Shown here piece by piece: positions 1-6,775 of a DNA stretch of 64,000 nt. Position numbers and translations under genes: made by a program. The notes under the pieces are model-generated. The model was not told the origin of the DNA. It saw only the letters and a list, made by a program, of their open reading frames with translations, and made no database searches. The stretch's first letter is position 1. Every line of letters starts with the position of its first letter. Source of the stretch: Synechococcus sp. (GTDB lineage Bacteria; Cyanobacteriota; Cyanobacteriia; Thermostichales; PCC-7336); contig JBFRWN010000077.1 in assembly GCA_051439605.1 (NCBI GenBank), positions 1-64,000 of the forward strand. Reading direction: 5' to 3'.

Positions 1-120
1 TTGCCCTTGCCTTAAGCTAGTCGTTATCGTCTCTCGGCTCCTATTTCTTTCGAGCATTTGGACGCTGGTTCTCCGACAGGGGACTTTCACCCCATTAGTT
101 CATGCCCATGCCGGGCGTAC
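1..120 (-). mobile_element. 5' end (domain I) of a group IIC-attC intron; remainder and RT ORF lie left of the window
   Basis: Minus strand from 120 reads GTACGCCCGGCATGGGCATGAACTAATGGGGTGAAAGTCCCC...CTAGCTTAAGGCAAGGG, typical of IIC intron 5' ends. It directly follows bottom-strand TTGT (IBS1) of an attC site. Confidence 0.88.
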
Positions 121-187
121 ACAAGGCGCTGCTGTCGGACAAATTTCCCGCTGCGCTCTAAATTTGCCGCAGAGCGCGGCGTTAGAC
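121..187 (+). other. Integron attC site 1, R'' box split by the intron
   Basis: (TA)ACAA-GGCGCTGCTGTCGGAC-AAATTT...AAATTT-GCCGCAGAGCGC-GGC-GTTAGAC: imperfect inverted repeat ending in R' GTTAGAC at 181-187. Confidence 0.9.
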
Positions 188-209
188 CTCCACCTAGAAG
201 GATTCATCA

Positions 210-800
210 ATGAAAGTAGGCCTAATAATCCGAGGACGATGGAGATCTCCAAACCACTCGAAAGATAAGAGACTTGATGATTCACATCAGATCAAGAAAG
301 AAATATTAAAAGAGGTAAAGAGTTACAGAAAATATGTTGTAAAAAATCCAGATATCGATGTTAATTCAGAAGGTAAAATTGTCCTTATAGGGGCAGTAAG
401 AGGGCAATATAAAGGTATAACATTACCAACAGATTTGCATATTCAAGACTTCGGGTTCGTGATTCACCTTACTCGACTGGATGCTAAACACACCGAGGTT
501 CAGTTACTTTTTCCTCTGTCTTTTGAAGAAAATTTGCAGTACGAAAGCCAAGAAATAGAGACCGATTTCTTGGCTTTATCCAGGATCTATATTGTGCCTG
601 ATAACGATGATATTCTTGATGAACTCATAAAGCACATTTTAATTACACACCCTGAGGGCAACCATAGTGTGTTTGTTAGTGTTGTACCTGATGAGAAATC
701 CTGATTAAATTAAACTATTGAGAGAGAATCTTTGGGGGATTTGATAGAATGTCAGGATGTCATTGAATTCCGAACTATTTCTCCTAAACTGCTAAGCTGA
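210..800 (+). pseudogene. Cassette 1 hypothetical protein, probably truncated by two nonsense codons (open part 210-704)
   Basis: After TGA 702-704 and TAA 711-713 the same frame continues (TIERESLGDLIECQDVIEFRTISPKLLS) to TGA 798-800, 7 bp before the next R'' box; low GC. Confidence 0.6.
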
Positions 801-807
801 GGGCTCC

Positions 808-898
808 GTCTAGCATGACGCTGTCCACGGATCGGCAGGCCAGAATGCTCGCTTTTCCCGGTAAATATATACCCGACCGGTACGCTGCAACGTTAGGT
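808..898 (+). other. attC site 2 (degenerate)
   Basis: R'' GTCTAGC 808-814 is one mismatch from the complement of the cassette's leading GTTAGAC; R' GTTAGGT 892-898. Confidence 0.7.
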
Positions 899-1003
899 TG
901 TCAATAGCACAAAATTTAGCAATACTTGTATTGTTTATAAAGATTATTTGCAGAAGTGCTTCTGAGTACAAATGCCGATAGATAATATAATTAAGTCATA
1001 GAG

Positions 1004-1046
1004 CATAGAAGTTCTCTAAGAAATTAGAGAAGAGAGAACTGCTATG
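1004..1046. repeat. 43-bp palindromic mini-element inside ORF-less cassette 2
   Basis: CATAGAAGTTCTCT (1004-1017) and AGAGAACTGCTATG (1033-1046) are 14-bp inverted repeats with one mismatch. Confidence 0.55.
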
Positions 1047-1088
1047 TTTCGACCAAAGAGGTTAAAGTCTGAAAGTCAAGAATAGAGG

Positions 1089-1187
1089 CAGCTAGGAGAT
1101 CTGCTTCAACAGCAGGACGCTGATGATATTCGGAAATAAACCATCAAATTTAGCTTTTGCTCGCGCCGGAGATTGCGACCGTTATAC
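1089..1187 (+). other. attC site 3 (strongly degenerate left half)
   Basis: Right half ...GCGCCGGAGATTGCGACC-GTTATAC with R' at 1181-1187; left boundary approximate. Confidence 0.55.
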
Positions 1188-1209
1188 ATAGAATATGGAG
1201 CTATGAAAG

Positions 1210-1698
1210 ATGAAAGCTAGAGAGCCATGTCCTCTTGCAGGAAAATTTAGCCTTTGGGAGAAAATCTATGCCCAATCTTCATTCATAGCAATGGGAATTT
1301 TTGGCACAGTTGGAATAATTCTCGAAGCTTGGATTTGGGTCATTCCATACATCATTGTCTATTGGTATGGAATTCTAGGGGTAGTTGTGAGGCATTTGAC
1401 TTGTACCAGATGTCCTCACCTATATGAATATGGAGATTGTCTGCAAGCCTCGCCAACCACAATCAAATGGCTTATTAAAAAACGAAAAACGACTCCATTT
1501 AGTGCGTTTGAAAAGTTTCTGTTTTACACGATCTTCATTCTTATTCCGACCTATCCCCTATACTGGTTGCGATTGAATCCAATATTGCTAAGCGCATTTT
1601 GGATAACGGCAAGCATGTGGTATTTAGGTCAGTTTTTCTACTTTTGCAAGCGATGCAGGGTTAAAGAATGCCCTTTTAATCGAGTTGTTTGGGCGTGA
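1210..1698 (+). CDS. Cassette 3: Cys-rich membrane protein of unknown function
   Basis: About four hydrophobic segments, CTRCPH and CKRCRVKEC motifs, GGAG RBS just after R'. Confidence 0.8.
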   Translation: MKAREPCPLAGKFSLWEKIYAQSSFIAMGIFGTVGIILEAWIWVIPYIIVYWYGILGVVVRHLTCTRCPHLYEYGDCLQASPTTIKWLIKKRKTTPFSAFEKFLFYTIFILIPTYPLYWLRLNPILLSAFWITASMWYLGQFFYFCKRCRVKECPFNRVVWA

Positions 1699-1715
1699 GT
1701 TGTTCAAATAATCAG

Positions 1716-1826
1716 ATGTATGACGTGGCAATTCAACCAGGACGCAAATTACGCTGGCGCTTCATGCTCAAAGTCCCTTAGATATACTTCGAGAAAATCC
1801 AGTTTCTTTTTAATGAATAGTTGGCA
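1716..1826 (+). other. attC site 4 (degenerate)
   Basis: R'' ATGTATGAC 1716-1724 matches the complement of the cassette's leading GTTATACAT with one mismatch; L''-like CAATTCAACCAGGAC; R' GTTGGCA 1820-1826. Confidence 0.6.
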
Positions 1827-1849
1827 TCTAAATAAAAGGAGTAAACAGT

Positions 1850-2623
1850 ATGAAGCAGTGGTATGAAGAATTGTTTGAAAATTACGGGATGACATATGAT
1901 AAAGAAAGTTTCACTCAAGGAACCATTGGAGAATGCGATTTTATTGAAAAAGAAATTGATTGCAATAAAAACGCAAGAATATTGGATATAGGGTGTGGAA
2001 CAGGAAGGCATTCAATTGAATTATCCAGAAGAGGCTATTACGTTGTTGGAATTGATTTGTCAGAATCACTTTTGAAACGCGCAAAAGAAAAAGCAACCGA
2101 GCGGAATCTGAAAATAGAGTTCCAAAAGAATGACGCCAGAAGCCTTAATTTCTTTCATAAATTCGACTTGGCCATAATGCTGTGTGAAGGCGCATTTCCT
2201 TTGATGGAAACCGATGAGATGAATTTTAAGATTCTCCAAAATGCCGCCAACGCTTTAAAACCAAACGGTAAATTGATTTTTACCACCTTGAATGGTTTGT
2301 TCCCTCTGTTTCATTCAGTCAAGGAATTCATCAACAAGGGCTGTACAGAAGGCACTTTATCAGAGAATACGTTTGATTTAATGAAATTTAGAGATTATTC
2401 AATCTATGAAACTGTAGATGATGAAGGCAAAAAGAAAACAATTCACTGTAATGAAAGGTATTACGTACCATCGGAAATAACTTGGCTATTGAAAACGCTG
2501 AATTTTAAAACTATTGATATATTCGGGGCAAAACTAGGTGCTTTTACAAGGGATGACAAATTGACAACTGAAGATTATGAAATGCTAGTGATAGCGGAAA
2601 AAAAATGCAAACAACTGCATTAA
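1850..2623 (+). CDS. Cassette 4: class I SAM-dependent methyltransferase
   Basis: ILDIGCGTG motif I, VVGIDLS, LKPNGK; AAGGAG RBS; stop codon inside the attC. Confidence 0.92.
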   Translation: MKQWYEELFENYGMTYDKESFTQGTIGECDFIEKEIDCNKNARILDIGCGTGRHSIELSRRGYYVVGIDLSESLLKRAKEKATERNLKIEFQKNDARSLNFFHKFDLAIMLCEGAFPLMETDEMNFKILQNAANALKPNGKLIFTTLNGLFPLFHSVKEFINKGCTEGTLSENTFDLMKFRDYSIYETVDDEGKKKTIHCNERYYVPSEITWLLKTLNFKTIDIFGAKLGAFTRDDKLTTEDYEMLVIAEKKCKQLH

Positions 2624-2680
2624 ACCCGACTGACGATTCCGCCGCGATCCATTGTCAGCCGGTTATGCGGAGCGTTAGGC
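2605..2680 (+). other. attC site 5 (last of the array)
   Basis: R'' ATGCAAAC (one mismatch to the complement of leading GTTGGCAT); GCATTAAACCCGACTGAC pairs with GTCAGCCGGTTATGC; R' GTTAGGC 2674-2680. Confidence 0.85.
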
Positions 2681-2694
2681 TATCCTTTCGCTAA

Positions 2695-2858
2695 GAGAAT
2701 GTTTGAAAAGGTATTGGCTGTGATGTTAAGCACTACAGGATCCCCCCTAGCCCCCCTTGGGAAGGGGGGAAACAGGCTCAAAAGTCCCCCTTCTTAAGGG
2801 GGATTTAGGGGGATCTGGATAGTTTTGATAAATCGTCAGGGACTTTTAAAACATCCTC
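2695..2858. mobile_element. 164-bp MITE with IS5-family (IS1031-like) ends containing an inverted pair of REP-like hairpins
   Basis: TIRs GAGAATGTTTGAAAAG / CTTTTAAAACATCCTC (2 mismatches), flanking TAA duplication at 2692-2694 and 2859-2861, no ORF. Confidence 0.8.
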
Positions 2859-2861
2859 TAA

Positions 2862-2945
2862 GCCACGATCGCAGCAATAGAGGAAACAGGCGATCGCGCT
2901 TCGTTCAAAGGCTACGGCCCCGAACAGGGATAAAGCTAATTACTA
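2862..2945 (+). pseudogene. dapL: Remnant of a second dapL allele
   Basis: 2862-2930 aligns ungapped to 3775-3843 (57/69 nt); encodes [23 protein letters not shown] then in-frame stops. Confidence 0.85.
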
Positions 2946-3010
2946 GACGATTGAAACTGATAAAGCAATGGCAATGACTTGGAGCAAGCGAAAACCTGAA
3001 GCCTCAAACA

Positions 3011-3043
3011 TCCCCCCCTTCCCAAGGGGGGCTAGGGGGGATC
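3011..3043. repeat. REP-like hairpin unit left of DUF559 gene
   Basis: TCCCCCCCTTCCCAAGGGGGGCTAGGGGGGATC; near-exact reverse complement of 2739-2770. Confidence 0.85.
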
Positions 3044-3044
3044 G

Positions 3045-3416
3045 ATGCCCCTAACCACCAGCAACTACCACCTCCCCTACAACCCCGCCCTAGTAGCCAG
3101 AGCCAAAGAACTCCGCAAAAACATGACCCCAGCGGAGAAAAAACTATGGAACCAGTATCTAAAGAAATTCAAATTCAGAGTTCTCAGACAACGCCCCATC
3201 GACCATTTCATCGTTGACTTCTATTGCCCCAAGCTCAAGCTCGTCATTGAGATTGACGGAGACAGCCACTTTACGGATGAGGGACAAGCCTACGATCGAG
3301 AACGAACTCAAAGATTGGAAGGCTATGGGTTGAGGGTGATTCGATTTACGAATCAGCAGGTTTTTCGCGAGTTTGAGAGGGTTTGCGAGCAGGTAGAGCT
3401 TTGGATCCCCCCTTGA
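3045..3416 (+). CDS. DUF559 / Vsr-like PD-(D/E)XK endonuclease domain protein
   Basis: AKELRKNMTPAEKKLW, RQRPIDHFIVDFYC, LVIEIDGDSH, D..R...L..G.RVIRF.N signature. Confidence 0.92.
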   Translation: MPLTTSNYHLPYNPALVARAKELRKNMTPAEKKLWNQYLKKFKFRVLRQRPIDHFIVDFYCPKLKLVIEIDGDSHFTDEGQAYDRERTQRLEGYGLRVIRFTNQQVFREFERVCEQVELWIPP

Positions 3417-3612: not shown

Positions 3613-4848
3613 ATGGCAACCATTAACGACAATTTTCTCAAGCTAAAAGCAGGCTATCTGTTCCCCGAAATTGCCCGTCGAGTCAAGGCATATGCGGAAG
3701 CAAACCCCGACGCTCCCATTATTAAGTTGGGGATTGGCGACGTAACAGAACCCCTGCCAGAAGCCTGCCGCACAGCCATGATTGCGGCCGTGGAGGAAAT
3801 GGGCGATCGCGCAACATTCAAAGGATACGGCCCCGAACAGGGATACGGCTGGTTGCGAGAGGCGATCGCCACAACCGACTTCCAATCCCGAGGCTGCGAC
3901 ATCGACGCCTCCGAAATCTTCATCTCCGATGGAGCCAAGTGCGACTGCGGCAACATCCTGGATATCTTCGGCCACAACAACACCATCGCCGTTACCGACC
4001 CCGTCTACCCCGTCTACGTAGACACCAACGTCATGGCCGGTAACACCAGAGAGGCAGACGACAGCGGCAAATACGGTGGCTTGGTCTACATGCCCATCTC
4101 CGCCGACAACAACTTCACCGCCGAAATCCCCTCCCAAAAAGTAGACCTGATCTACCTCTGCTTCCCCAATAACCCGACTGGTGCAACCGCCACCAAAGAG
4201 CATCTGCAGCAGTGGGTGGACTACGCCAAAGCCAACGGCTCCATCATCCTGTTCGACGCTGCCTACGAAGCCTTCATCACCGACGACTCCCTGCCCCACT
4301 CCATCTACGAAATTGAAGGGGCGCGGGATTGCGCGATCGAATTCCGCTCCTTCTCTAAAAACGCAGGGTTTACCGGCACCCGCTGCGCCCTAACTGTCGT
4401 ACCCAAATCTCTAACCGGCAAAGCTGCCGACGGCTCCGATGTAGAGCTACACCAACTGTGGAACCGCCGCCAATCCACCAAGTTCAACGGCGTGTCCTAC
4501 ATCGTGCAGCGGGGGGCAGAAGCGGTCTACTCTGCTGAAGGTAAAGCCCAAACCAAAGCCCTGATTGCCTTCTACTTAGAAAATGCCCGCATCATTTGCG
4601 AGCAGCTCACTACCGCTGGCCTGCAGGTTTACGGTGGCGTTAACGCTCCCTACGTCTGGGTTAAAACCTCCAACGGCCTCTCTAGCTGGGATTTCTTCGA
4701 CAAGCTGCTGACTGCCACCCACATTGTGGGCACCCCCGGCTCCGGCTTCGGCGCTGCAGGCGAAGGCTACTTCCGCATTTCCGCCTTCAACAGTCGCGAG
4801 AATGTGAACGAGGCCACTCGCCGGATTGTGGAGAAGTTCTCTGTCTAG
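3613..4848 (+). CDS. dapL: LL-diaminopimelate aminotransferase
   Basis: [45 protein letters not shown] (PLP lysine); ATG 3613 preferred. Confidence 0.97.
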
Positions 4849-4873
4849 TTGCCAAACAGCAGCAGCTTGCCTA

Positions 4874-4972
4874 TATATCGGTGGTCATCTCAGTTAAGTC
4901 AGACAAACAGTTCTATTCTTAGGCAGGGGTCTGGATAGCTGAGATGTCCTCAGCATCTTGACGGTCGCTACA
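4874..4972 (+). repeat. ~95-bp dispersed repeat, copy 1
   Basis: GTCATCTCAGTTA...TAGCTGAGATGTCCTCAGCATCTTGACGGTCGCTA; similar to four other intergenic loci. Confidence 0.75.
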
Positions 4973-4992
4973 AAATTGGCATGACTTCGATT

Positions 4993-5030
4993 TCAAAAGC
5001 CCATCTGCGAGTAATCCAGATGGGCTTTGA
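4993..5030 (-). terminator. Intrinsic terminator hairpin between convergent dapL and ureC
   Basis: AAAGCCCATCTG-N9-CAGATGGGCTTT. Confidence 0.7.
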
Positions 5031-5056
5031 CGTTGAATGTGTTTAAGCTCGTCAAT

Positions 5057-6775
5057 CTAAAACAGGAAATACCGCTGCGCCATCGGAAGCACCTCTGCCG
5101 GCTCGCAGGTCAGTAACTCTCCATCTGCGCGAACCTCGTAAGTTTCGGGATTCACTTCAATGTGCGGAGTCTCGGTATTCAGCTTCAAATCCGCTTTACT
5201 AATTTCCCGACAGTTTCCCACCCCAAACACTGGCCGCTGCAGTCCCAACTGCTCGGGGATGCCGTTTTCTACCCCCGCTTGCGACATAAATATCAGGCTA
5301 GTTTGCTCCATCGCTTTACCAAAGCCCCCAAACATGGGACGGGAATGCACCGGCTGCGGTGTAGGAATCGAGGCATTCGGGTCTCCCATTTGGGCGTATG
5401 CGATCGTCCCACCCTTCAACACGAGTTCCGGTTTGACCCCAAAAAACGCCGGCTTCCAAATACATAGGTCAGCCAGCTTTCCTACTTCGATAGATCCAAT
5501 GACAGTATCGAGACCGTGGGCAATCGCTGGACAAATCGTATACTTAGCCACGTACCGCTTGGCCCGATGGTTGTCATTGCGATCGCTATCCTGCGGCAGC
5601 GGTCCCCGCTGATCCTTCATCTTGGAGGCGGTCTGCCAGGTGCGGATAATCACCTCTCCCACCCGCCCCATTGCTTGCGAGTCGGAGGCAATAATGCTGA
5701 ACACTCCCATGTCGTGCAGGATGTCTTCTGCGGCAATTGTTTGCGGACGAATGCGGGATTCGGCAAACGCCACATCCTCCGGCACATCCTTACTGAGGTG
5801 GTGGCACACCATCAGCATGTCAAGATGCTCTTCGATTGTATTCACCGTGAAAGGACGAGTGGGGTTCGTGCTGCTGGGTAGAACGTTGGGCTCAGAGGCA
5901 ATTCGAATAATGTCGGGGGCATGGCCTCCCCCCGCCCCTTCCGTATGAAACGTGTGGATCGTGCGACCGTTGATGGCGGCGATCGTATCCTCTACAAAAG
6001 CAGACTCGTTTAACGTATCCGTATGAATCAGCGCCTGAATATCGTATTGGTCGCAAATATCCAGGCAAGTATCGATAACTGCTGGAGTCGAGCCCCAGTC
6101 TTCATGCATTTTTAGGCCGCAAGCCCCCGCTTCCACCTGTTCTGCTAATGATTCGGGCAAAGAGCTATTGCCCTTCCCGAAGAATCCCAGATTCAGCGGA
6201 AATGCTTCTGCTGCTTGAAACATCTTGCCGAGATTCCAGGCTCCTGGCGTACAGGTCGTGGCATTCGTGCCCGTTGCAGGGCCGGTGCCCCCTCCCAACA
6301 GGGTGGTTACGCCAGAGGCGATCGCAAATTCGCACAGCTGCGGACAAATGAAGTGAACGTGAGTGTCCAGCCCCCCGGCAGTCACAATCGTGTTTTCCCC
6401 GGCGATCGCTTCAGTTGAAGCACCCACCACCATTCCGGGGGTGACCCCATCCTGAATGTTCGGATTTCCAGCTTTACCAATCCCAACAATGTAACCATCC
6501 CGAATCCCGATATCTGCTTTGACGATTCCCCACCAATCCAGAATCAGGGCATTGGTAATCACGACATCTAATGCCCCCTTGCCTCGGGTAGCCGTCGGCG
6601 ATTGTCCCATCCCATCCCGAATGGTTTTTCCTCCCCCAAACTTGACCTCTTCTCCATAGGTGGTGAAATCCCGTTCCACCTCAATCGCGAGTGAGGTATC
6701 GGCCAATCGCACGCGATCGCCCACTGTCGGCCCGTAGCTGCTGACATACTGGCGGCGGGGAATTTCCAGGGTCAT
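5057..6775 (-). CDS. ureC: Urease subunit alpha
   Basis: [44 protein letters not shown]. Confidence 0.99.

What the first reader, a model, noticed from the sequence alone, without database searches (positions are those of the whole stretch)
1..187. Group IIC-attC intron inserted at the canonical position of an attC site
Seen: the minus strand reads attC hairpin, then TTGT, then GTACGCCCGGCATGGG...GGGGTGAAAGTCCCC, and the TA of the R'' TAAC is displaced. Known: IIC-attC introns insert in the attC bottom strand after TTGT, antisense to the cassettes. Inference: a retroelement is parasitising a cyanobacterial cassette array. Its first pentamer is GUACG rather than the usual GUGYG.
Basis: partly seen in the sequence, partly recalled or inferred. 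Interest (0 to 1): 0.75.

Follow-up and report, generated by a model that had tools for sequence, protein, structure and literature searches.

The report
attC-homing group II intron, cyanobacterium
The left edge of this window is the start of a self-splicing mobile intron of a known integron-targeting kind, sitting backwards in a gene-cassette recombination hairpin of a cyanobacterium; it is an ordinary member of that kind in a host group where the papers I could search do not describe it.

Summary
On the minus strand an imperfect hairpin (187..121) opens with an R'-type heptamer and ends in TTGT. It is followed at 120..1 by the first 120 nt of a class C group II intron. The window starts at a contig start, so the rest of the intron cannot be retrieved.

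The same intron end (97-100% identical) closes three other contigs of this genome, each behind a different attC-like hairpin. Two further contig ends carry its 3' end, with a domain V/VI match.

A 1.94 kb relative in a same-genus genome encodes an RT plus maturase with no endonuclease domain. Its best solved match is GsI-IIC RT.

In RT trees the cyanobacterial family nests in a supported clade with introns taken from class 1 integron arrays and with the Nitrosomonas europaea intron. A loop in domain I co-varies with the last exon bases (EBS1-IBS1).

GUACG is not odd: 23 of 26 lineage members start that way, including all 6 integron-type references.

Verdict: a new member of a known kind (IIC-attC), multi-copy here. 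Whether this particular copy is full length is unknown. The scan has already met such introns in other cyanobacterial genomes.

The parts
1..120 (-). First 120 nt (start of domain I) of a class C, attC-lineage group II intron; cut by the contig start
   Evidence: One search gives the sequence. One search shows window 1 is C77:1. Searches show the same 120 nt at 99-100% identity at the ends of C111 and C104, and 97-99% at C132. One search finds the continuation on C104 matching RF02001 positions 1-49 (30.2 bits, E 0.0088, cut at the contig end). One search gives 90% identity to the G002 copy over the 167-nt 5' query (C104 copy), whose next 167 nt score 133 bits on RF02001.
121..124 (-). TTGT, the last four 5'-exon bases (IBS1); its GT is the first half of the split R'' core
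   Evidence: In 18 of 26 aligned lineage members one domain I loop holds the exact 4-nt complement of the member's own last four exon bases. The block is shown.
126..177 (-). Imperfect hairpin of the attC bottom strand (L boxes plus variable loop), with two bulged bases on its 3' arm
   Evidence: One search gives the structure, -15 kcal/mol, z -1.43. One search shows that the whole site forms one long hairpin once a complementary 3' half is added.
181..187 (-). R'-box heptamer (fits RYYYAAC on the bottom strand; GTTAGAC on the + strand, the cassette boundary)
   Evidence: A + strand ORF starts 23 nt further on. Reference class 1 integron attC sites found begin with the same kind of heptamer followed by GCC.
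210..704 (+). Cassette-like ORF (164 aa) antisense to the intron; no Pfam family
   Evidence: The stretch 188-2600 has 37.9% G+C against 51.9% for 5001-64000.
808..898 (-). Second, weaker attC-like candidate (R'-type heptamer at 898..892; poor R'' half)
   Evidence: by eye only. The fold does not give a single clean hairpin.
1210..1698 (+). Cassette-like ORF (162 aa), no Pfam family; a GTTATAC heptamer lies 23 nt upstream at 1181-1187
1850..2623 (+). SAM-methyltransferase ORF (257 aa), cassette-like
   Evidence: Methyltransf_25, 4.7e-21.
2606..2680 (-). attC-like site overlapping the end of the methyltransferase ORF; R'-type heptamer at 2680..2674, long imperfect stem, and TTGT followed by T near its 3' end
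   Evidence: sequence and fold. Coordinates were counted from those outputs.

Best explanation
Window 120..1 (minus strand) is the 5' end of a mobile group II intron of class C that belongs to the attC-targeting (IIC-attC) lineage. It reverse-spliced into the single-stranded bottom strand of an integron-type attC hairpin, directly after TTGT, splitting the R'' core. It therefore lies antisense to the cassette genes on the + strand. Target choice rests on two things: the DNA hairpin, which takes the place of IBS2, and a 3-4 nt pairing between the last exon bases and an EBS1 loop about 200-250 nt into domain I. The element is multi-copy in this genome, with at least four 5' junctions, which is why the assembler broke the contig inside it. 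Shown: the sequence, the junctions, the class, the lineage of close relatives, the orientation and the EBS1-IBS1 covariation in relatives. Inferred: that this particular copy is full length, that it splices and is still mobile, and that the hairpin is a site an integron integrase would use.
For: Junction and copies. Four contig ends carry the same intron start, each behind a different hairpin that opens with an RYYYAAC-like heptamer and ends in TTGT (3 of 4) or GTGT (1 of 4). Two contig ends carry the 3' end, with RF00029 at 41.9 bits against a cut-off of 40, each followed by T.

Class. The C104 copy matches RF02001 positions 1-49. The full relative in G002 scores 133 bits on RF02001 and 58.9 on RF01998. 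Its IEP hits TIGR04416 (327.9 bits), RVT_1 and GIIM and nothing else. The best PDB match is GsI-IIC RT at 346 bits, against LtrA at 123 and the T. elongatus IIB RT at 84.

Lineage. In the careful tree of 33 rows, the 13 cyanobacterial rows form a clade (100/99). Together with Methylocalor they join 7 integron-type rows at 98/97, excluding 8 other class C rows. In the quick tree of 81 rows a 41-row clade (SH-aLRT 96) holds the integron references, N. europaea and the cyanobacterial family. The integron references were verified by context: they lie inside class 1 arrays and antisense to the cassettes.

Target pairing. 18 of 26 members have an exact 4-nt complement in one aligned loop, with ACAA/TTGT, ACCA/TGGT and ACCT/AGGT. 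By my reading, 25 of 26 are complementary over the last three bases, with four pair types.

Context. The adjacent ORF is antisense at 6 of 6 junctions. Integron integrases score over the TIGR02249 cut-off on C88 (451.8 bits) and C7 (371.8 bits). The cassette stretch is low in G+C.
Against: The 3' half of this site and the intron body are not on the contig, so neither the R'' split nor the full length of this copy is seen directly.

The hairpin's energy is unremarkable: z is -1.43 here and +0.48 for the C111 site, and only C104 (-2.54) and C132 (-2.49) stand out.

No attC covariance model was run, and my own attC scanner did not discriminate.

The integrases are on other contigs. At least one copy (C98|C132) lies among ordinary-looking chromosomal genes, and one (C104) lies next to a TrwC relaxase, so not every target is in a cassette array.

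The lineage test used relatives' RTs, not this genome's own, which is unassembled.

The G002 site has a poor R''.

The C104 match to RF02001 is 1.8 bits under the gathering score.
Confidence: 0.88

Rival explanations
1. This particular copy is a dead remnant (a 5' fragment or an ORF-less derivative), not a full-length intron with an RT gene.
For: Relatives decay often. G002 holds a 756-nt 5' fragment beside its full copy, and the full copy has an RT/X frameshift. The G039 copy runs about 750 nt from 5' end to 3' match with no RT ORF. G042, G035 and G049 lack intact ORFs. Only two 3' junctions were found for four 5' junctions.
Against: All four 5' ends are 97-100% identical, which speaks for recent copying. 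Contigs of the likely source run cover parts of the RT region at high word depth (about 320-350). They carry a 2-nt insertion exactly at the G002 frameshift site, which puts RT and X in one frame there. A repeat of about 2 kb explains the contig breaks, and contigs under about 3.1 kb are absent from the assembly.
Confidence: 0.3
2. It is an ordinary class C intron behind a terminator-like hairpin, and the attC likeness of the site is coincidental.
For: Class C introns in general insert after hairpins (PMC4424553, passages read). The hairpin energy is not significant. No attC model was run. Some copies sit among non-cassette genes.
Against: There is no T run after the stem; TTGT is there instead. 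In contrast, 5 of the 10 clear non-lineage class C introns sit behind T runs and 9 of the 10 start GUGYG. All four sites open with an RYYYAAC-like heptamer at the matching distance. The C132/C98 pair gives 7 of 7 complementary R boxes. The RT lineage is that of integron introns.
Confidence: 0.06
3. The cyanobacterial family is a separate class C lineage that came to target attC sites independently of the named IIC-attC lineage.
For: The family is only 52-53% identical in RT to the integron references. It forms its own fully supported clade. The deep named members G.s.I1 and the Methylomirabilis and Allochromatium introns were not in my trees.
Against: It is nested between the integron references and the N. 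europaea intron inside a clade with SH-aLRT 96, and 98/97 in the careful tree. It shares GUACG, the TTGT target and the position of the EBS1 loop with them.
Confidence: 0.07

Closest known systems
Group IIC-attC introns of class 1 integrons (S.ma.I2 / E.c.I7 / Kl.pn.I1 type; Leon et al. 2010, PMC3001079, abstract, passages from a term search, section 14 with Table 3 read)
   Same: They insert in the attC bottom strand after TTGT, antisense to the cassettes. They start GUACGCCC, have a 441-451 aa IEP with RT and X only, and carry the EBS1 loop at the same aligned place. The RT clade is shared.
   Different: RT identity is only about 52-53%. The host here is a cyanobacterial chromosome or MAG, not a proteobacterial resistance plasmid. 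No sigma-70-like outward promoter was found by the simple scan in window 1-120, whereas the 2010 paper reports Pout in most members.
N.e.I1 of Nitrosomonas europaea (named IIC-attC member in PMC3001079, Table 3)
   Same: It shares the supported RT clade. It is preceded by TTGT. It is 59% identical to the cyanobacterial family.
   Different: It starts GUGCG, not GUACG.
Class C introns that insert after intrinsic terminators (general IIC; PMC4424553, passages read)
   Same: They share the ribozyme class, an En-less IEP and the need for an upstream hairpin in place of IBS2.
   Different: Here the hairpin carries R boxes and is followed by TTGT, not a T run. The RT lies outside the sampled terminator-type clades of Bacillota, Burkholderiaceae, Alphaproteobacteria and Acidobacteriota.
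Earlier findings of this scan in other cyanobacterial genomes (e1-3081782, e1-5205843, e1-7819493)
   Same: All report attC-splitting class C introns in cyanobacteria, including ORF-less copies of about 700 nt.
   Different: Here the element is seen only as contig-end pieces, with at least four junctions in one genome.
IS1111-attC insertion sequences (mentioned in PMC3001079 discussion)
   Same: They are another mobile element family that parasitises attC sites, antisense and near the 5' end of the site.
   Different: They are DNA transposons with a transposase, with no ribozyme and no RNA-DNA pairing.

Membership tests
Group II intron, class C (IIC) | Class C-type domain I RNA | tested here: met
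   The G000 copy on C104 matches RF02001 positions 1-49 at 30.2 bits, E 0.0088, cut by the contig end and 1.8 bits under gathering. The G002 copy, 90% identical over the 167-nt 5' query (C104 copy), scores 133 bits on RF02001 and 58.9 on RF01998. The window's own 120 nt lie upstream of what Rfam models.
Group II intron, class C (IIC) | Catalytic domain V and domain VI at the 3' end | tested here: inconclusive
   RF00029 scores 41.9 bits (cut-off 40) at two contig ends of G000. These ends cannot be linked to the window's own copy.
Group II intron, class C (IIC) | IEP with RT and maturase (X) domains and no endonuclease domain, closest to class C RTs | tested here: met
   Tested in relatives only. 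The G002 IEP hits TIGR04416, RVT_1 and GIIM and nothing else. The best PDB match is GsI-IIC RT at 346 bits. The family's proteins are 444-454 aa with PF00078 and PF08388. The G000 interior is unassembled. Contigs from run X1, the possible source, cover parts of the RT region.
IIC-attC lineage | IEP falls in the monophyletic group of attC-inserted introns | tested here: met
   Relatives' RTs join the context-verified integron introns at 98/97. They sit in a 41-row clade (SH-aLRT 96) with N. europaea. G.s.I1 and some other named members were not sampled.
IIC-attC lineage | Insertion in the attC bottom strand at TTGT/T inside R'' | tested here: met
   TTGT precedes the intron at 124..121. T follows the intron at both 3' junctions in the genome. 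For C132 plus C98 the two R boxes are 7 of 7 complementary. The 3' exon of the window's own copy is not available.
IIC-attC lineage | Orientation opposite to the cassette genes | tested here: met
   The adjacent ORF is on the opposite strand at 6 of 6 junctions. In the window this is ORF 210-704 (+).
Integron / CALIN cassette array | attC sites recognised by an attC model, two or more in a row | not tested
   No attC covariance model is available in Rfam and I built none. By eye there are sites at 121-187 and 2606-2680, with weaker ones at 808-898 and near 1181-1187. My heuristic scanner was not discriminating.
Integron / CALIN cassette array | Integron integrase next to the array | tested here: inconclusive
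   IntI genes score over the TIGR02249 cut-off in the genome, on C88 (451.8 bits) and C7 (371.8 bits, partial). There is none on C77, and contig breaks hide any linkage.
Integron / CALIN cassette array | The site is recombined by IntI | not testable with these tools
   This needs a recombination assay.

The most novel reading that the evidence does not exclude
The cyanobacterial branch of attC-homing introns is currently active in this genome. It sits in cassette arrays and also at solitary attC-like hairpins beside ordinary chromosomal genes (the C98|C132 site) and on a relaxase-bearing element (C104). Near-identical copies at an attC and at other hairpins are the substrates that the Leon and Roy model needs for joining an attC to a new gene by recombination between intron copies. 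On this reading the genome would hold live intermediates of cassette genesis.
Probability: 0.12. Interest if true: 0.7.

Novelty: new member of a known kind. Interest (0 to 1): 0.4.

Why it matters
IIC-attC introns are the one retroelement lineage known to specialise on integron recombination sites, and they have been proposed to help create new gene cassettes. The published host lists I could read (PMC3001079 Table 3; PMC7923331 passages) are proteobacterial, apart from one NC10 bacterium, two marine metagenome entries and a soda-lake metagenome. Here a large, well-supported cyanobacterial branch appears. Its 444-454 aa RTs come from records named Leptolyngbya, Nodosilinea, Halomicronema, Lyngbya, Phormidesmis and Synechococcus, and this genome holds at least four insertions. 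That widens the known host range. It offers a natural system with several near-identical copies in one chromosome. It also gives a clean covariation signal for how these introns read their target (EBS1 loop against the last exon bases). The element itself is not a new kind of thing.

Tried and rejected
Rfam on the window (gathering) and on 1-1500 at E up to 10 gave no group II match. The reason is where the Rfam models start, not absence of an intron.

My own attC scanner (R boxes plus constrained fold) gave 995 hits genome-wide at about 2 per 10 kb and missed the window's sites. I rejected it as not discriminating. An attC covariance model was considered and not built.

BLAST of five attC-like sites against the genome found no related copies, so these sites share no sequence family.

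A search for the window's cassette (121-1300) in 6 other genomes of the family found nothing, so no empty site was obtained.

An exact 60-nt scan of metagenome contigs gave 0 hits.

A simple promoter scan of 1-1300 found no outward promoter in 1-120 (1 site, at 898-926, against a shuffled mean of 2.6).

The look-up of sequencing runs listed no RNA holder, so nothing can be said on expression.

Read laying gave contigs only, from metagenomes. Uncovered bins, depths and copy number are not interpretable, and I use only the covered pieces and the 2-nt insertion.

Léon & Roy 2009 (PMC2714756, PMC2747902) are not held. Quiroga & Centron 2009 was not available. These may already list cyanobacterial members.

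I counted the coordinates instead.

Full report
**What is in the sequence.**
- On the minus strand the heptamer GTCTAAC lies at 187..181 and an imperfect inverted repeat at 177..126.
- TTGT lies at 124..121. From 120 down to 1 comes a sequence that opens GUACGCCCGGCAUGGG and contains GGGGUGAAAGUCCCC.
- The window is G000:C77:1-64000, so position 1 is the first base of a contig. Nothing lies to the left.
- Rfam finds no group II match on the window at gathering or on 1-1500 at E up to 10.
- That is not evidence against an intron. In the full-length relative the intron starts at L028:5359 and the first Rfam domain I model (RF02001) starts only at 5241. The first ~118 nt are simply not modelled.

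**The element is a repeat that broke the assembly.**
- The same 120-167 nt close three more contigs: C111:5705-5824, C104:4591-4757 and C132:124-1, at 97-100% identity.
- Homology stops within about 11 nt upstream of GUACG. Beyond that each copy has a different flank.
- The 47 extra bases on C104 match RF02001 positions 1-49. The score is 30.2 bits at E 0.0088, cut by the contig end and 1.8 bits under gathering.
- Two other contig ends (C96, C98) carry an identical 3' end, with RF00029 (domains V/VI) at 41.9 bits against a cut-off of 40.
- Those ends finish in ...GAU and are followed by TAGGT and TATGC.
- No contig holds the interior. The smallest contig is 3,130 nt, and the only GIIM match in the genome belongs to a different intron on C13.
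- There are thus at least four insertions, with two 3' junctions assembled.

**Relatives.**
- The 167-nt 5' piece matches 8 of 61 genomes searched, counting G000. The hits are one same-genus genome, one same-order genome and five same-class genomes.
- G002 (same genus, one contig) holds a copy of about 1.94 kb (L028 5359..~3423), 90% identical over the 167-nt 5' query, plus a 756-nt 5' fragment. The two copies share 82 nt of upstream flank.
- Its IEP hits TIGR04416 (327.9 bits), RVT_1 and GIIM and nothing else. It is split by one frameshift between the RT and X parts.
- The G002 RT is identical to P0001, to which a source gives a Synechococcus name.
- At 64-80% identity there is a large family of mostly 444-454 aa proteins. 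Their records are named Nodosilinea, Halomicronema, Leptolyngbya, Lyngbya and Phormidesmis, and many sit on ~2 kb contigs.
- The copies in G042, G049 and G035 have no intact ORF. The G039 copy spans only about 750 nt from 5' end to 3' match, without an RT.

**Class and lineage.**
- The best solved relatives of the G002 RT are class C enzymes: GsI-IIC RT at 346 bits and the 7uim, 5hhj and 5hhl chains at 243-254 bits.
- By contrast LtrA scores 123 bits and the IIB maturase 6me0 scores 84.
- For lineage references I took introns from plasmid records and checked their context. L042 (two copies), L043, L044, L051 and L053 lie inside class 1 integron arrays, antisense to the resistance cassettes, with intI1 at the end.
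- L053 follows arr-2, as the Kl.pn.I1 entry does in Table 3 of PMC3001079.
- The careful tree has 33 rows under LG+G4:
  - The 13 cyanobacterial rows form a clade at 100/99.
  - With Methylocalor they join at 98/95.
  - Together with the 7 integron-type rows they form a clade at 98/97. This clade excludes 8 other class C rows (Burkholderia, Sinorhizobium, Bradyrhizobium, Sulfobacillus, Lactobacillales).
- A genome-contig scan gave 78 loci. I used 54 of them. The other 24 were mostly near-duplicate Acidobacteriota and Alphaproteobacteria.
- Two of the 54 (L066, L121) were dropped for ORFs under 300 aa. Four near-duplicate rows were also dropped.
- The resulting quick tree has 81 rows:
  - A 41-row clade (SH-aLRT 96) holds the integron references, the Nitrosomonas europaea intron (a named IIC-attC member in PMC3001079) and the cyanobacterial family (16 rows, 100).
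  - It also holds introns from Methylococcales, Chromatiaceae, Sulfuricella, Dechloromonas, Desulfobulbaceae, Nitrospirota, Spirochaetota and Endozoicomonas.
  - 32 other class C rows lie outside it.

**The 5' pentamer.**
- A regex for the 5' end hit 41 of 93 loci scanned.
- Among the 26 lineage members I then aligned, 23 start GUACG, including 6 of 6 integron-type reference loci. The other three are Sulfuricella (GCGCG), Dechloromonas (GUGCG) and N. europaea (GUGCG).
- Among the 10 clear cases outside the lineage, 9 start GUGYG and one starts GUACG (L110).
- GUACG is therefore a mark of the lineage, not a peculiarity of this copy.

**The target.**
- All four G000 5' exons have the same layout: an RYYYAAC-like heptamer, a few unpaired bases, a long imperfect stem with bulges on its 3' arm, then 4-5 unpaired bases ending in TTGT (3 of 4) or GTGT (1 of 4).
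- Energy alone is weak support. The z-scores are -1.43 (window), +0.48 (C111), -2.54 (C104) and -2.49 (C132).
- The C132 5' exon and the C98 3' exon together give R boxes that are 7 of 7 complementary and an 89-nt single hairpin.
- The flanks of the integron reference introns give the same picture. Intact reference attC sites found begin and end like the window's site.
- The neighbouring ORF is antisense to the intron at 6 of 6 junctions.
- In the window the + strand carries two ORFs without a Pfam family (210-704, 1210-1698) and a methyltransferase (1850-2623).
- That stretch has 37.9% G+C against 51.9% for the rest of the window.
- It has none of the window's 58 HIP1 octamers (1.2 expected by chance). 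For 2.9 kb, however, zero is only mildly unexpected.
- A urease alpha gene follows at 5057-6775.
- Integron integrases score over the TIGR02249 cut-off on C88 (451.8 bits) and C7 (371.8 bits, at a contig start).
- Not every copy is in an array:
  - The C98|C132 site lies among regulators and transporters.
  - C104 carries a TrwC relaxase.

**How the target is read.**
- I aligned the first 520 nt of 26 lineage members. One hairpin loop, about 200-250 nt into the intron, holds the exact complement of the member's own last four exon bases in 18 of 26.
- The pairs are ACAA for TTGT, ACCA for TGGT (G002) and ACCT for AGGT (Sulfuricella).
- Reading the block printed, 25 of 26 are complementary over the last three bases. 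There are four pair types: ACA/TGT, ACC/GGT, CAA/TTG and CAC/GTG. The exception is L095.
- This is the EBS1-IBS1 pairing expected for class C introns, which use a hairpin in place of IBS2 (PMC7923331, passages read).
- G000's own loop lies in the unassembled part.

**Is this copy whole?**
- Contigs from four metagenome runs were laid on the G002 intron. One of the runs may be the source of this genome.
- Short high-depth pieces from that run cover parts of the RT region. A 1,579-nt contig from a second run covers most of 3816-5319.
- Both runs show a 2-nt insertion exactly behind L028:3876, the last base of the last RT codon before the G002 frameshift. By my frame arithmetic this puts RT and X in one frame.
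- This suggests that an intact IEP exists in the sample. It does not show that the window's copy is full length.

**Known or new.**
- PMC3001079 and PMC7923331 define the lineage as I found it: bottom strand, TTGT/T in R'', antisense orientation and a monophyletic IEP group.
- The host table of the 2010 paper has no cyanobacterium.
- Two full-text searches found no paper on such introns in cyanobacteria:
  - attC + group II intron + cyanobacteria gave 2 papers.
  - integron + cyanobacteria + group II intron + cassette gave 5 papers.
- Three key papers were not readable (and Quiroga & Centron 2009).
- This scan has already reported attC-splitting class C introns in other cyanobacterial genomes, ORF-less ones among them.

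Noticed in passing
window 2640-3040: A roughly 400-nt element is bounded by long inverted repeats made of G and C runs. It folds end to end (-85 kcal/mol for 2615-3050) and contains HIP1-like GCGATCGC. It looks like a MITE inserted between an attC-like site and the DUF559 ORF.
   Followed up: no
window 6325-6624 (+): Rfam matches 5_ureB_sRNA (85.8 bits) antisense to the urease alpha gene at 5057-6775 (-). This is probably conservation of the coding sequence rather than a real sRNA.
   Followed up: no
window 188-2600: G+C is 37.9% against 51.9% for 5001-64000, and none of the window's 58 HIP1 octamers lies before 2890. The first three ORFs look recently acquired.
   Followed up: partly
G000 C86:2557-2634 and C13:30317-30404: Two further group II introns of other types match RF00029 (49.6 and 45.5 bits). 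The C13 one has a GIIM ORF interrupted by a TAG.
   Followed up: no
L028 3524-4862 and L029 (G002): The full copy in the same-genus genome has a frameshift between the RT and X parts. A second copy is a 756-nt 5' fragment that shares 82 nt of upstream flank with the first, so the site and intron were duplicated together or the sites are paralogous.
   Followed up: partly
L030 3208-~3955 (G039): This is an ORF-less derivative of about 750 nt with domain I-IV and 3'-end matches but no RT. The genome holds four 5' ends, three of them near contig ends.
   Followed up: partly
L036 701-1573 (G000 C104): A TrwC-type relaxase gene lies 3 kb from an intron-bearing attC-like site, so this copy may sit on a plasmid or integrative element.
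   Followed up: no
L076 813-882 and 3893-3962: Two RF00029 matches of equal score lie 3 kb apart in an Endozoicomonadaceae contig. These are probably tandem copies of a lineage member.
   Followed up: no
L069, L070, L076, L094: Spirochaete and Endozoicomonas members of the lineage sit behind ...TTG rather than ...TGT, and their EBS1 loop reads CAA. The register of the target has shifted within the lineage.
   Followed up: partly
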